Origin: an uncultured bacterium
GTDB taxonomy: Bacteria; Verrucomicrobiota; Verrucomicrobiia; Verrucomicrobiales; DEV007
Length of the DNA stretch: 58,898 bases
Direction of reading: 5' to 3'
Assembly (NCBI GenBank): GCA_963977015.1
Contig: CAXBMO010000032.1
Location: 1 to 58,898 of the forward strand
How positions within the stretch are numbered: the first letter of the stretch is position 1; every line of letters begins with the position of its first letter. Of the stretch, positions 3,001 through 6,000 are shown one piece after another. Position numbers: made by a program.

Positions 3001-6000
3001 CTCGAATCTACAAAGGCGGAGCTTTGAGGACTTGCACCCCATGCCTCGTTTTCGCGAGGCACCATTCGTTTAGCAAACGACTCCGACACGCTTGTTCGGT
3101 TAAAACTCCAATCGAAATACCAAGTGCCCGTAGCAGGATTTGCACCTGCACTGAACCGCTTTTGAGTCGGCTGCCTCTGCTGTTGGGCTATACGGGCGTT
3201 TCGTTGCAAAGAAGTGCTCACGGAAGGATTCGCACCTTCAACTCCTCGGTTTTAAGTCGAGTGCCTCTGCTCTTGGGCCACGTGAGCCTGCTCATTCGTC
3301 GACCCGGTGGGAATCGCACCCACGTCCTCTCGCTTATAAGGCGAGCGCTCTCACTGCGCCTGAGCTACGGGTCAAAAGGTAGAACGGTACCCACGACAGG
3401 ATTTGCACCTGCAACCTTCCGCTTCTAAAACGGACGCCTCTGCTATTGGGCTACGTGGGCCAATGTCAATTTGATGAACGTTCCACCGGTCGGTGTCGCA
3501 CCGACATGGTCTCCTTTACGAGAGGAGTGCATTGCTGACTTCTGCCACGGTGGATAAATGGAGTTTGTAGGCACTCCCGGTAGGACTCGAACCTACAACC
3601 TGATGCTTCGAAGGCACCCGCTCTTCCAATTGAGCTACAGGAGCGAAAAGAAATCTAATCAATACGGGATGGAGGATTCGAACCCCTCGACAGCCAACCC
3701 ACAGTTTATGGTCGACACGTTAGAAGCATGTGGTGGGAACATCCCGCGTAGCCACGACTGGTAGTCGTGGTTTGAAATTCGAGTCCCACTCGAATCTACG
3801 ACTAAAAAAATAGGGGCTGAAGGTAACGCTCCCTCGTCTCCTGTGTGTAAAACAGGCGTCCTACTATTGAACGAAGCCCCCATCACTATGATCATGTGAG
3901 GAAGTATCCCGGGAGGGATTTGCACCCCCAACCTCTGCGCACTCAACACAGCGCCTCTGCTGATTGGGCTACCGGGACATTGGGGCCAACGGCGAGTCTC
4001 TCACTCGCATCTTCCGACTTACAAGGTCGGCGCACTTCTCTGCCACGCTGGCGTCTCAAAAGAAAGCGGTGCGCCGTGCCGGTGCTGCCCCGGCTCCTCC
4101 TGTTTGGAAGACAGACGTCCTAGCTGGTAGACGAACAGCGCTTCAAGGTGAAAGAATGCCCGTGCGGGAATCGCACCCGCCACACTCTGGGTTGCAACCA
4201 GGCCGGTTCACTAGCTCCGGTCACGGGCGTCTTCCGAGAAAGGGTTGATCGACGGGATTTGCACCCGCACCGCAACCTTCACAGGGTCGAATGCTAACAT
4301 TTACACTACGATCAACATCTCTGGATTCAATACCACTACCAAGAGTCCCCCCGGTGGGTAACGCTCCCACTTCTGCGGTTTAAAAGACCGCTGCATCACT
4401 TTAATGCTTCGAGGGAAGAAGTGATGGATTTCTACCTATCCCCGCCAGGATTTGCACCTGATCCGACGCCTTCGCACGACGCCATGCTTCTCTTACACTA
4501 CAGGGACAACTCCATTCGCTACCGCCAAAACGCCTCATGCCGGTTACGCTCCGACTCAACCTGTTCGACAGACAGGCAGGCTACTATTACATCAATGAGG
4601 CTTGTTGAAGAAGTGGCTGGCTCCGGAATTGCACCGGGCTCTCGTCGCCTTCAACGACACGCTAATCTGTCTCAGCTATCCAGCCTTTGAATTCCCGAAA
4701 TCGTCCTGGATGGTAACGCTCCACCGTCTACCGGTTATCAACCGGTTGCTCTGCTTTTGAGCTACAGGACGCGAAAGAAAGGCACCTCCGCTTGGACTCG
4801 AACCAAGCTCGCGAGGCTTAACAGGCCTGCTGCACACCCGGTGCATTCGAAGGTCAAAGAAGACTCGGGGGCGGGAATCGAACCCGCGTGAAAGGCGGCT
4901 TATGAGGCCCCTTCGAGACGCCAACGCTCTCCCCGAAGAATGGAAATGTTCGAACCAAGATACGGGCCACGGAGGTCCTGCCCCCCAAACGCAGGACTAC
5001 TGCGTTCAATCCGTTTTCAAGACGGTTCCGGCACGCTTGTCCGGTTCGGGACCCATGTCTCTTTGGTTGTGAAAGGTAGGTCCTGGTGGAATCGCACCAC
5101 GCGTCGACTTTCGGCTTCTTTTATGACAACGGTTTTACAGACCGCCAGCCGAGGCAGGACCTATGTGAAAGAAATTGGCAAGGCGTGGGGGAATTGAACC
5201 CGCCGTTCCCAGACTGAAAACCTGGTGTCCTAGCCATTAGACGAACGCCTCATTTGGAAAAATGGAAATGGGAGGTCCTGGTAACGCTCCAGGCATCCAG
5301 GGTTATGAGCCCCGGGGCAGAACTTTCTGACCTCCAATCTGCTGATTGCGTCGCGGTGGTAGGACTCGCACCTACTTCCTGAGACTTCCAAGGTCCCTAT
5401 CTCGACTACTTCGACCTCACCGCGAAAACTGGTATGGAGACACTCGGTAACGCTCCGAGTCCTGCTGCTTGCAAGGCAGCCGTGCTATCTTTTATCACTA
5501 TGCCCCCAAAGAATGGCAGACTGCGAGAGAATCGAACTCTCTAAGCGCAAGGTTTGGAATCTTGCCGCGACACCCACTCGCCGACAGTCTGCATTGATAC
5601 TTCTTTCCACAATTCTCTGAAGCATGAAGGGAACTTCCAAGCCTGACGATTCATCACGGATTCTTCACGCGTGAACCCATGTGATTTAGAAGCGGCATGC
5701 TGTTGAGCGCGCCGCCGTTTCAATATTTGGATTTGGGTTCCGGGAAGAGGAAGGATGGAATCGAACTGATGATCCGTTCTACCTTCGCTTCAGAGAAAGA
5801 CGAACACCGTTACCGATCGTTACTCGGTAGCCGCAGGTTTTCACAGACGGACGTTTCGGTGTCTAACAGGCACACCTCCCTTACATAGAAGCCTCTTGGG
5901 TTGCCATTCCCAAGAGACAAACACTTTCCGTAACACGATTCGAAAATGGTGTGATCCGGTTGACCAAGTTGAAGACTTGTATAAATTAGAAACTTGTAGG

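What a model noticed while it worked through the whole genome (the two positions that open the first line are those of the whole stretch)
3124..3978. Four tRNA-Leu genes without the long variable arm, members of a phage-borne short tRNA-Leu family
The array encodes tRNAs with the Leu anticodons CAA, UAA, UAG and GAG. They are 74-75 nt long and have a 5-nt variable loop instead of the long arm that defines bacterial tRNA-Leu. They keep A73 and the 3-bp D stem. They belong to one conserved family (D arm UAGCCCAA..AGAGGC) that is found in all tRNA arrays of relatives and is common in phage genomes and viral contigs.
Evidence so far: - Structures: calls 12, 13. - Housekeeping Leu tRNAs are 82-85 nt. 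- 44 of 44 array Leu tRNAs in 21 loci that hold one are 73-79 nt. - RNAalifold: 21 pairs, 17 with compensatory changes. A73 in 44 of 44. - The four genes are 93-97% identical to G002. - Same family in Vibrio phage phiKT1024 (78 nt, call 105), in 31 cultured-phage records and in Thermobifida phage P318. - IMG/VR: 124 loci listed (row limit reached); 96 motif tRNAs, of which 91 have Leu anticodons, all 73-79 nt. - Array Ser tRNAs mostly keep the long arm. G000 has one LeuRS. - No paper found.
(Added by a program. Inside this text positions count along the whole contig: contig position 1 is position 1 of the stretch shown here. "Call 12" and the like, gene names such as g00115 and contig names such as C1 are that model's own, and its searches are not shown. 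The text may have been shortened before it was handed on; [...] marks where a part breaks off. The agent that wrote the report below was given it as the finding of a first reader that could run no searches.)

Follow-up and report, generated by a model that had tools for sequence, protein, structure and literature searches.

The report
Short-arm leucine tRNAs in tRNA array
Four leucine tRNA genes that lack the usual long extra arm sit in a cluster of spare tRNA genes; they belong to a very widespread family that is an ordinary leucine tRNA of actinobacteria, is carried by many phages and tRNA clusters, and has one member already shown in the laboratory to accept leucine.

Summary
Window 3124-3978 (- strand) holds four tRNA genes with anticodons CAA, UAA, UAG and GAG. 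They are 74-75 nt long, with a 5-nt variable loop, A73 and a 3-bp D stem. The host's own five Leu tRNAs are 82-85 nt.

The family reading is right but incomplete, and "no paper found" is wrong.
- **Published member:** the same D-arm family includes the type I tRNALeu(CAA) of Streptomyces. Fan et al. 2019 (PMC6614811) showed that S. coelicolor LeuRS leucylates it and E. coli LeuRS does not.
- **Actinomycetota:** In one Nocardia and one Streptomyces chromosome the short gene was the only UAA or CAA isoacceptor found.
- **Phages and other arrays:** the family also occurs in many cultured phages (T5-like, Felix-O1-like, cyanophages, actinophages). It is in tRNA arrays of other phyla, including the Anabaena PCC 7120 array, whose tRNAs are aminoacylated in vivo.

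Most likely these are functional type I Leu tRNAs of a horizontally spread L-array. Charging in this host is untested, and its single LeuRS lacks the leucine-specific domain.

Unreported as far as I could search: about 70% of the array tRNAs, including all four, have G55 in the T loop paired in covariation with A18.

The parts
3124..3197 (-). type I (short variable loop) tRNA-Leu, anticodon CAA, 74 nt
   Evidence: ARAGORN. Rfam tRNA 49.4 bits. Family model R1 85.4 bits. 5-nt variable loop UCAGU, A73, T loop UGCAAAU.
3214..3287 (-). type I tRNA-Leu, anticodon UAA, 74 nt
   Evidence: ARAGORN. Rfam 51.5 bits. R1 83.9 bits. 5-nt variable loop, A73, T loop UGCGAAU.
3386..3460 (-). type I tRNA-Leu, anticodon UAG, 75 nt
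   Evidence: ARAGORN. Rfam 57.0 bits. R1 91.1 bits. A37 where the host's UAG tRNA has G37.
3904..3978 (-). type I tRNA-Leu, anticodon GAG, 75 nt
   Evidence: ARAGORN. Rfam 42.2 bits. R1 79.0 bits. U37 in the anticodon loop. The host set has AAG, not GAG.
2797..5590 (-). tRNA gene array (L-array type) that holds the four genes: 18 ARAGORN genes plus 4 further Rfam tRNA hits and one weak tRNA-Sec-model hit, all on one strand
   Evidence: Spacers between ARAGORN genes are 2-259 nt. The host has a full housekeeping tRNA set on other contigs.

Best explanation
The four genes encode functional type I (short-variable-loop) leucine tRNAs for the codons UUG, UUA, CUA/CUG and CUC/CUU. They are supernumerary isoacceptors inside a horizontally spread long tRNA array (L-array).

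They belong to one old family that probably arose from an ordinary type II tRNA-Leu by loss of the arm. That family is a housekeeping Leu isoacceptor in Actinomycetota and has been spread, with all six Leu anticodons, by phages and tRNA arrays.

Charging would be by the host's single LeuRS, which reads neither the anticodon nor (in bacteria) the arm. It would use body features: U8:A14, the Leu-type D arm, the 15:48 pair, a variable loop of exactly five nucleotides, and the acceptor end.

Shown here: structure, family membership, conservation, distribution. Shown by others for relatives: leucylation of the Streptomyces member, and in vivo aminoacylation of the Anabaena array tRNAs. Inferred: charging and use in this host.
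For: **Structure under selection**
- 39 array Leu tRNAs pair in 95.2% of cells. 17 of 20 helix pairs have compensatory changes, 0 of 500 shuffles reach this, and slid controls give 32-45%.
- U8, A14, A15:U48, G19:C56 and A73 are present in 39 of 39.

**Leu-specific scaffold**
- With the anticodon left free, 123 of 130 IMG/VR motif matches carry one of the six Leu anticodons.
- With N-A-R allowed, 126 of 126 genome matches are Leu and none is GAA (Phe).
- A73 is present in 128 of 130 and 126 of 126.
- 15:48 covaries: A:U in 111 and G:C in 10 of 126 genome matches.

**Leu-like body**
- The D arm has the same architecture as the host's type II Leu tRNAs.
- Under a model built only from the host's type II Leu tRNAs, the four rank 1, 2, 3 and 5 among the array tRNAs.
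- The same model scores a Nocardia type I gene at 67.8 bits, against at most 43.1 for the non-Leu tRNAs of that genome.

**Same family as a tested tRNA**
- Streptomyces loci score 72.6-72.8 bits, and Nocardia, Corynebacterium, Bifidobacterium and Arthrobacter loci score 80-86 bits, with model R1.
- In the own genome, tRNAs outside the family score at most 57.3 bits.
- Streptomyces genes have the published loop ACAGC.
- Fan et al. 2019: ScoLeuRS leucylates type I tRNALeu(CAA) with kcat/Km 6.25 versus 14.2 per s per uM for type II. U8:A14 and the 5-nt loop length matter, the elbow does not, and the gene could not be deleted.

**Housekeeping role in Actinomycetota**
- It is the only UAA (Nocardia sp.) or CAA (Streptomyces sp.) Leu gene found in two complete chromosomes.

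**Parallel array**
- The Anabaena PCC 7120 plasmid delta array has short Leu tRNAs with the same four anticodons (75-78 nt). Three score 65.5-73.3 bits with R1.

**LeuRS**
- Removing the arm of Aquifex tRNALeu mainly lowered affinity (PMC2377443).
Against: - No charging or expression data exist for this organism. No RNA run holds the stretch.
[quoted passage not shown] The host LeuRS here has no LSD, so the one known mechanism cannot apply as such.
- All four genes replace the near-universal G18:U55 by A18:G55. The three CUN readers lack G37, which all three host CUN-reading Leu tRNAs have. The GAG gene has U37. The effect of these changes on elbow readers, EF-Tu, the ribosome or frame keeping is unknown.
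- L-arrays are reported to be poorly transcribed unless translation is stressed (PMC8421152 abstract and section 26).
- The GAG copy of G002 is truncated, so some decay occurs.
- Three of the four genes do not encode CCA. The UAG gene has only CC after A73.
- The fourth Anabaena Leu gene (GAG) did not reach E 1e-10 with R1.
Confidence: 0.7

Rival explanations
1. Nuclease-proof or stress spare set. The array tRNAs do work in translation. But they are kept because their altered shape (no long arm, A18:G55 elbow, changed anticodon-loop positions) escapes tRNA-targeting toxins or defence nucleases, or because they replace damaged host tRNAs under translational stress.
For: - Phage tRNAs that neutralise a tRNA-cleaving defence system are known: T5 tRNA against PARIS (titles and abstracts in the listing).
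- Mycobacterial arrays are called putative antidefence systems (abstract of PMC12803027).
- The Anabaena L-array is induced by translational stress and aids survival (PMC8421152 abstract).
- The array differs from all 41 housekeeping tRNAs at the elbow and at position 37 of the CUN-reading Leu tRNAs.
- A Ro60 (TROVE) gene and a YrlA-like RNA, parts of an RNA-damage pathway, lie next to the array here and in 4 relatives' loci.
Against: - No nuclease that needs the long arm of bacterial tRNALeu, or G18:U55, is shown in anything I read.
- Array Ser tRNAs mostly keep the long arm, 6 of 8.
- In Actinomycetota the same short tRNA is plain housekeeping, so short does not by itself mean evasive.
- Most phage members keep the canonical elbow, 126 of 130.
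Confidence: 0.2
2. Cryptic cargo. The genes are structurally intact passengers of a mobile array but are not, or only poorly, charged or used in this host.
For: - E. coli LeuRS cannot charge the Streptomyces type I tRNA.
- The host LeuRS lacks the domain that conferred this ability.
- L-arrays are reported as nearly silent.
- The GAG copy in G002 is truncated.
- No RNA evidence exists.
Against: - There is strong compensatory covariation across at least 17 genomes of the bacterial family and order.
- Isoacceptor-specific lineages are conserved between genera.
- Three of the four genes are 91-97% conserved in G002.
- The LSD is dispensable for LeuRS activity and acts as a discriminator favouring large arms, so an LSD-less enzyme could be more permissive (PMC3643597).
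Confidence: 0.12
3. Non-translational role. These are tRNA-like molecules that work with the neighbouring Ro60/Y-RNA system, or as decoys, rather than as adaptors.
For: - Linkage of array, YrlA-like RNA and TROVE gene on one strand, conserved in 4 relatives' loci.
- The universal U55 is replaced.
Against: - The anticodons are confined to Leu and cover the codon box systematically.
- The anticodon stem covaries.
- A73 and acceptor pairing are conserved.
- Homologues are essential adaptors in Streptomyces.
Confidence: 0.05
4. Another identity. The short tRNAs are charged with an amino acid other than leucine and recode Leu codons.
For: ARAGORN names isotypes by anticodon only. Aberrant migration of two charged array tRNAs (Phe, Ile) was seen in Anabaena.
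Against: - The tested family member accepts leucine.
- C3:G70 excludes the Ala rule.
- No other synthetase reads NAA or NAG anticodons (established knowledge, recalled).
- The same tRNA is the sole UUA or UUG reader in actinobacterial genomes.
Confidence: 0.03

Closest known systems
Type I tRNALeu(CAA) of Streptomyces coelicolor (Fan et al. 2019, NAR, PMC6614811)
   Same: - Bacterial tRNA with a Leu anticodon, a 5-nt variable loop, U8:A14 and A73.
- Coexists with type II Leu tRNAs and a single LeuRS.
- Same D-arm family: Streptomyces loci score 72.6-72.8 bits with the array-derived model, and the published loop ACAGC is found in my Streptomyces loci.
   Different: - That one is a solitary, essential chromosomal gene with G15:C48 and a canonical G18G19/U55C56 elbow.
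- The window's genes are supernumerary array genes with A15:U48, A18:G55 and four anticodons.
- The host LeuRS here lacks the LSD that was decisive in Streptomyces.
L-array (trn operon) of Anabaena/Nostoc sp. PCC 7120 plasmid delta (Santamaria-Gomez et al. 2021, PMC8421152)
   Same: - Long one-strand array of supernumerary tRNA genes spread by horizontal transfer.
- Holds short Leu tRNAs with the same four anticodons CAA, UAA, UAG and GAG.
   Different: - Canonical UUC T loops there.
- Expression and in vivo aminoacylation are shown there and not here.
- The paper does not mention the Leu structure: 0 occurrences of tRNALeu or class II in its text.
Canonical bacterial type II tRNALeu (the host's own five genes)
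   Same: 3-bp D stem, D loop with A14 A15 and ..G.AGA, A73, U8.
   Different: The 10-12-nt arm is missing. Pair 12:23 is C:G instead of G:C. The elbow is A18:G55. CUN readers have A37 or U37 instead of G37.
Animal mitochondrial type I tRNALeu, e.g. human mt-tRNALeu(UUR)
   Same: Short variable loop and A73. Human mt LeuRS leucylated both Streptomyces tRNALeu types.
   Different: ScoLeuRS does not charge the human mt tRNA. I made no sequence comparison here.
Phage-encoded tRNA-Leu genes (T5-like SP15, Felix-O1-like phi63_307, Pseudomonas ZC03, Sinorhizobium Phosso, Thermobifida P318 and others)
   Same: Same family by model score, 60.7-79.6 bits. Length 74-78 nt. Annotated tRNA-Leu where annotated.
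   Different: Canonical elbow. ZC03 carries an 84-nt Leu gene as well. The short structure is not noted in the records.

Membership tests
tRNA (Rfam RF00005) | Cloverleaf scoring above the gathering score | tested here: met
   42.2-57.0 bits against a gathering score of 29. Covariation on 39 relatives.
Type I (short-loop) bacterial tRNALeu, as defined by Fan et al. 2019 | Variable loop of 5 nt instead of an arm of more than 10 nt | tested here: met
   ARAGORN structures. Alignment with host type II genes.
Type I (short-loop) bacterial tRNALeu, as defined by Fan et al. 2019 | Leu anticodon, with the scaffold restricted to Leu anticodons | tested here: met
   CAA, UAA, UAG, GAG. 123 of 130 and 126 of 126 motif matches are Leu.
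Type I (short-loop) bacterial tRNALeu, as defined by Fan et al. 2019 | U8:A14 present (needed for leucylation in the tested system) | tested here: met
   T8 and A14 are invariant in 39 of 39.
Type I (short-loop) bacterial tRNALeu, as defined by Fan et al. 2019 | Sequence and structure relatedness to the Streptomyces gene | tested here: met
   Model R1, built from array genes, scores Streptomyces loci at 72.6-72.8 bits. Non-family tRNAs in the own genome score at most 57.3. A few non-Leu array tRNAs of relatives reach 60-72 bits, so the boundary is not sharp inside arrays.
Type I (short-loop) bacterial tRNALeu, as defined by Fan et al. 2019 | Canonical elbow G18G19/U55C56 | tested here: not met
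   A18:G55 in all four. G19:C56 is kept. In the tested system deleting these bases did not harm leucylation of the type I tRNA.
Type I (short-loop) bacterial tRNALeu, as defined by Fan et al. 2019 | Leucylated by the cell's single LeuRS | not testable with these tools
   There is one LeuRS. It lacks the LSD.
Canonical bacterial type II tRNALeu | Long variable arm | tested here: not met
L-array (long horizontally spread tRNA gene array) | Many tRNA genes, same orientation, closely spaced, supernumerary to a housekeeping set | tested here: met
   18 ARAGORN genes plus 4-5 Rfam genes on one strand in 2.8 kb. A full set lies elsewhere in the genome. Related arrays are in 32 of 41 genomes searched, G000 included, though many weaker matches are single tRNAs.
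tRNA pseudogene | Broken stems or truncated ends | tested here: not met
   All stems are intact in the four. The GAG homologue in G002 is truncated.

The most novel reading that the evidence does not exclude
The array is a deliberately "foreign-shaped" translation kit. Loss of the Leu arm, replacement of the universal G18:psi55 elbow contact by a covarying A18:G55 pair in about 70% of the array's tRNAs, and loss of G37 in the CUN readers together make these tRNAs poor substrates for host-directed tRNA nucleases, toxins or modification-dependent sensors. They stay usable by an LSD-less LeuRS and the ribosome. The same logic would explain why phages of many phyla carry the armless Leu scaffold, diversified to all six anticodons.
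Probability: 0.15. Interest if true: 0.8.

Novelty: new variant of a known kind. Interest (0 to 1): 0.55.

Why it matters
Textbooks, and the reviews I checked, treat the long arm as a mark of bacterial tRNALeu. Those reviews are PMC7609411 and PMC9976931, read as term searches only. The one paper on a bacterial armless tRNALeu calls it rare.

The data here suggest it is common:
- a normal isoacceptor across Actinomycetota;
- the form of tRNALeu carried by many phages, T5-like coliphages among them;
- the form found in L-arrays of at least five other phyla.

This sharpens a testable puzzle. E. coli LeuRS rejected the Streptomyces type I tRNA, yet coliphages encode one, and this host's LeuRS lacks the domain said to enable charging.

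It also gives a marker for tracing the common origin of L-arrays and phage tRNA sets. And it exposes an unreported elbow variant (A18:G55) that removes the universal psi55 site.

Tried and rejected
- **Expression:** no RNA holder was listed. Laying three runs gave only contig pieces, mostly of diverged relatives. The one run guessed to be RNA proves nothing.
- **BLAST of an array Leu gene against phages:** mostly hit tRNA-Trp, tRNA-Arg and tRNA-Met genes, so I did not use it for counts. The 855-base query hit mainly the non-Leu tRNAs.
- **First genome pattern:** I corrected it at the same tool.
- **Papers not held:**
  - PMC6103686 on Acidithiobacillus array tRNA function.
  - PMC283332 on T5-coded tRNAs.
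  - PMC115294 on minimalist tRNALeu.
  - So early evidence on T5 leucine-accepting tRNA, and on E. coli LeuRS charging arm-less constructs, is recalled and was not seen.
- **Recalled parallel (GUGC T loops of staphylococcal cell-wall tRNAGly):** could not be verified and was dropped.
- **Is the wide family in print?** The searches were. Only PMC6614811 uses "type I tRNALeu". No paper holds G55 + A18 + T-loop + tRNA. No held paper repeats the title phrase of Fan et al. The library lacks most subscription journals, and I saw no supplements or figures, including the figure that says which three Anabaena tRNAs are pseudogenes.
- **Considered and rejected:**
  - Chance tRNA-like sequences: rejected by covariation.
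  - Pseudogenes: the stems are intact.
  - Ala or Phe identity: C3:G70, and no GAA anticodon.
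Full report
**1. What is there**

ARAGORN finds 18 tRNA genes in the window, all on the - strand between 2797 and 5590. Four carry Leu anticodons: CAA (3124-3197), UAA (3214-3287), UAG (3386-3460) and GAG (3904-3978), each 74-75 nt.

Their drawn structures have a 7-bp acceptor stem, U8, a 3-bp D stem with a 10-11-nt loop, a 5-nt variable loop and A73. 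Rfam's tRNA model scores them 42.2-57.0 bits against a gathering score of 29. It adds four tRNA hits that ARAGORN missed, plus one weak tRNA-Sec-model hit. Energy folding alone recovers the cloverleaf for three of the four.

The 6.9-Mb, 51-contig genome has 41 further tRNA genes. They include five Leu tRNAs of 82-85 nt: UAG, CAG, CAA, UAA and AAG. Aligned together, the array genes lack only the arm and share the Leu-type D arm.

**2. Conservation in relatives**

A DNA search of 41 genomes, G000 included, found matches to the array in 32. Many of the weaker matches are single tRNAs.

I fetched 20 array loci. With the window they hold 214 ARAGORN tRNAs. Of these, 39 are Leu, in 18 of the 21 sources, and all are 73-79 nt.

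On their alignment the cloverleaf pairs in 95.2% of cells. 17 of 20 helix pairs show changes on both sides. No shuffle of 500 reaches this, and slid partners give 32-45%. U8, A14, A15:U48, G19:C56 and A73 are invariant.

Six of 8 array Ser tRNAs and the one Tyr tRNA keep the long arm.

In G002 the CAA, UAA and UAG genes are 90.8-97.3% identical to the window's. The GAG homologue is truncated after the T loop.

**3. The family outside this clade**

A covariance model of the 39 genes (R1) scores the window's four at 79-91 bits. Everything else in the genome scores at most 57.3, and the host's own type II Leu tRNAs score 42-50.

*IMG/VR.* I scanned for the D-arm and T-loop motif with the anticodon left free and up to 26 extra bases allowed for an arm.
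- 123 matches have Leu anticodons, covering all six. The other seven are four odd loops, one Gly and two uncalled.
- All called genes are 72-79 nt, and none has an arm.

*Cultured phages.* R1 scores are:

| Phage | tRNA-Leu | R1 bits |
|---|---|---|
| Thermobifida phage P318 | unannotated (UAG) | 79.6 |
| Sinorhizobium phage Phosso | GAG, CAA | 72.8, 71.1 |
| Pseudomonas phage ZC03 | 77-nt gene; also has an 84-nt Leu gene | 74.6 |
| Felix-O1-like phi63_307 | AAG, UAA | 73.2, 62.2 |
| T5-like coliphage SP15 | UAA, 74 nt | 60.7 |

A blastn search with one viral member hit 482 phage records. In the 120 rows shown, every annotated feature under the match was tRNA-Leu. I verified structures only in the three records fetched from that search: ZC03, phi63_307 and SP15.

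**4. The key correction: the family is known and is not mainly phage-borne**

Fan et al. 2019 (PMC6614811; abstract, introduction, sections 11, 12, 14 and 15 and the discussion read) report the following.
- S. coelicolor has four type II Leu tRNAs and one type I tRNALeu(CAA), with the 5-nt loop ACAGC.
- Its single LeuRS leucylates both types. kcat/Km is 6.25 versus 14.2 per s per uM.
- Human mitochondrial LeuRS also charges the type I tRNA. E. coli LeuRS does not.
- A73 is not an identity element there.
- U8:A14 and a loop length of five matter.
- The elbow bases are dispensable for the type I tRNA.
- The gene could not be deleted.

My one genome-collection scan used a relaxed motif, an anticodon of N-A-R, and allowed an arm.
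- All are Leu: UAA 75, CAA 30, UAG 13, CAG 7 and GAG 1. None is GAA.
- All are 73-78 nt.

By record titles (read by me) the loci break down as follows.

| Group | Loci | Solitary within 300-400 nt |
|---|---|---|
| Actinomycetota | 92 | 89 |
| Planctomycetota | 7 | 6 |
| Verrucomicrobiota | 4 | 0 |
| Cyanobacteria / Melainabacteria | 7 | 0 |
| Other phyla | 11 | 3 |

Ten genes, all from Streptomyces and its kin (Kitasatospora, Actinacidiphila), have G15:C48. Several of them carry the published loop ACAGC. R1 scores Streptomyces genes at 72.6-72.8 bits. It scores Nocardia, Corynebacterium, Bifidobacterium, Arthrobacter and Thermobifida genes at 78-86 bits.

I also built a model from the host's type II Leu tRNAs (R2) and searched two complete chromosomes.
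- Nocardia sp.: type II UAG, CAA, GAG (two copies) and CAG, plus a 75-nt UAA gene.
- Streptomyces sp.: type II CAG, UAG, GAG (two copies) and UAA, plus a 74-nt CAA gene.
- In each genome the short gene is the only one found for its anticodon. The Streptomyces set matches the published description.

Across the scans A73 holds in 128 of 130 viral and 126 of 126 genomic matches. The 15:48 pair covaries between A:U and G:C.

**5. A parallel array with experimental data**

The L-array of Nostoc/Anabaena PCC 7120 plasmid delta has 24 ARAGORN tRNAs. Among them are Leu UAA (75 nt), GAG (78), UAG (75) and CAA (78), the same four anticodons as here. Three of them score 65.5-73.3 bits with R1. The GAG gene did not reach E 1e-10.

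Santamaria-Gomez et al. 2021 (PMC8421152; abstract and sections 21 and 26 read) report the following.
- The tRNAs are found in polysome fractions.
- L-arrays spread horizontally in Verrucomicrobia, Planctomycetes, Actinobacteria, Cyanobacteria and Proteobacteria.

Since at most three genes are pseudogenes, at least one of the four short Leu tRNAs was charged. Which ones is shown only in a figure I could not see. The text never mentions the Leu structure.

**6. How it most likely works here, and what is uncertain**

The four genes are most likely working Leu adaptors, charged through body features, supernumerary to the housekeeping set, and part of an L-array. I put this at about 0.7.

Points in favour:
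- The scaffold is Leu-specific, covaries, and is homologous to a tested tRNA.
- R2, trained only on type II Leu tRNAs, ranks the four 1st, 2nd, 3rd and 5th among the array tRNAs. The margins are small, 37.6-45.1 bits against 41.1 for an Arg tRNA.
- Arm removal from Aquifex tRNALeu mainly cost affinity (PMC2377443).

Points against or open:
- The genome has one LeuRS.
- Alignment to the Thermus and E. coli structures shows that this LeuRS goes from residue 609 straight to KMSKS. Those enzymes have about 45-55 more residues there, so it has no LSD.
- Yan et al. 2013 (PMC3643597; abstract and passages read) show that the LSD is missing in some species and dispensable for activity. It acts as a tRNA discriminator that favours large arm loops. 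An LSD-less enzyme may therefore be permissive, but this is inference.
- It also means the Streptomyces mechanism cannot be copied over.
- No expression data could be had.

**7. An unreported feature of the same genes**

All four have the T loop UGCRAAU (G at position 55) and a D loop with AG in place of GG.
- In the Leu alignment, 18:55 is A:G in 35 genes and G:U in 4, with no mixed case.
- Over all 214 array tRNAs:
  - G55 goes with AG in the D loop in 142, with GG in 9, and with neither in 3.
  - U55 goes with GG in 59 of 59.
  - One tRNA had a 6-nt T loop.
- All 41 housekeeping tRNAs of the genome are canonical.
- In the genome scan the G55 form was confined to the four Verrucomicrobiota loci.
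- In IMG/VR it was 4 of 130 matches.

D-loop numbering is by analogy with canonical tRNA, and kin are not independent.

The CUN-reading array Leu tRNAs also have A37 where the host's have G37. The window's GAG gene has U37. Seven of 8 GAG genes have C33; the window's has U33.

I found no paper on the A18:G55 pair.

**8. Verdict**

It missed the published Streptomyces case, the housekeeping role in Actinomycetota and the Anabaena data.
- The genes are new members of a known kind, type I bacterial tRNALeu inside an L-array.
- They also have variant features: the A18:G55 elbow, A15:U48, and a host LeuRS without an LSD.
- As far as my nine literature searches reach, the breadth of the family is not in print.

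Noticed in passing
window 2797-5590 (all array tRNAs) and loci L013-L032: About 70% of the array tRNAs replace the universal G18:U55 elbow contact by A18:G55 (T loop NGC, D loop AG). The counts are 142 G55+AG, 9 G55+GG, 3 G55 with neither, and 59 U55+GG. All 41 housekeeping tRNAs of the genome are canonical. Within the Leu family the two positions covary without exception (35 A:G, 4 G:U).
   Followed up: partly
window 870-2300 (-) and 2524-2589 (-): A TROVE-domain (Ro60/Rsr-like) gene (Pfam E 6e-21) lies directly downstream of the array on the same strand. Between them is a partial YrlA (Y RNA-like) match to the tRNA-like module: 39.6 bits, below the gathering score of 69. The TROVE gene is also next to the arrays in L013, L016, L025 and L019 (66-84% identity).
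   Followed up: partly
G000 contig C27, locus L280:946-3498 (+): The genome's only LeuRS (851 aa) lacks the leucine-specific domain. A short linker (GENGQ) precedes KMSKS where the Thermus and E. coli enzymes have about 45-55 more residues.
   Followed up: partly
window 3386-3460, 3904-3978; alignment A1: CUN-reading array Leu tRNAs have A37 where the host's three CUN-reading Leu tRNAs have G37. The window's GAG gene has U37. 7 of 8 GAG genes in the arrays have C33 instead of U33.
   Followed up: partly
window 3811-3881, 4156-4230, 4437-4507, 5351-5424, 5435-5507 (-): Further tRNA-like genes found by Rfam but not by ARAGORN: four tRNA hits of 37.7-47.7 bits, and one hit to the tRNA-Sec model at 32.5 bits, below its gathering score. 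Conversely, five ARAGORN genes did not reach E 0.01 in Rfam.
   Followed up: no
L020:3738-3828, L025:4169-4259, L032:1357-1446: Arrays of relatives hold 90-91-nt tRNAs with anticodon UAU (Ile AUA) and a long variable arm, the reverse oddity. The window's own tRNA-Ile(UAU) is 77 nt. Two array tRNAs with Ser anticodons are short: L018 UGA 75 nt and L023 AGA 73 nt.
   Followed up: partly
window 18981-23324 (+): A 1448-aa protein combines leucine-rich repeats, Roc/COR GTPase, a TIR domain and a caspase-like (Peptidase_C14) domain. This is an NLR-like architecture suggestive of defence or cell death.
   Followed up: no
window 192-641 (-): An IS200-like (Y1) transposase gene lies near the contig end, beyond the TROVE gene. 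The other flank of the array (from 6716 on) carries sulfatase and PSCyt/PSD-domain genes typical of the Planctomycetota-Verrucomicrobiota group.
   Followed up: no
G000 contig C10:129843-129925: The housekeeping set has tRNA-Leu(AAG) rather than GAG. The array supplies GAG and lacks CAG.
   Followed up: no
L033:1501-1575 (Thermobifida phage P318) and L273:295-369 (Thermobifida fusca): The phage's unannotated short tRNA-Leu(UAG) is 63/75 identical to its host's chromosomal short tRNA-Leu(UAG), with compensatory acceptor-stem changes. This is a phage-host pair that both use the armless form.
   Followed up: partly
L161, L201, L220, L223, L230, L234 (Planctomycetota MAGs): Solitary short tRNA-Leu(UAA) genes with a canonical elbow. 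The armless form may be housekeeping in some Planctomycetota too.
   Followed up: no
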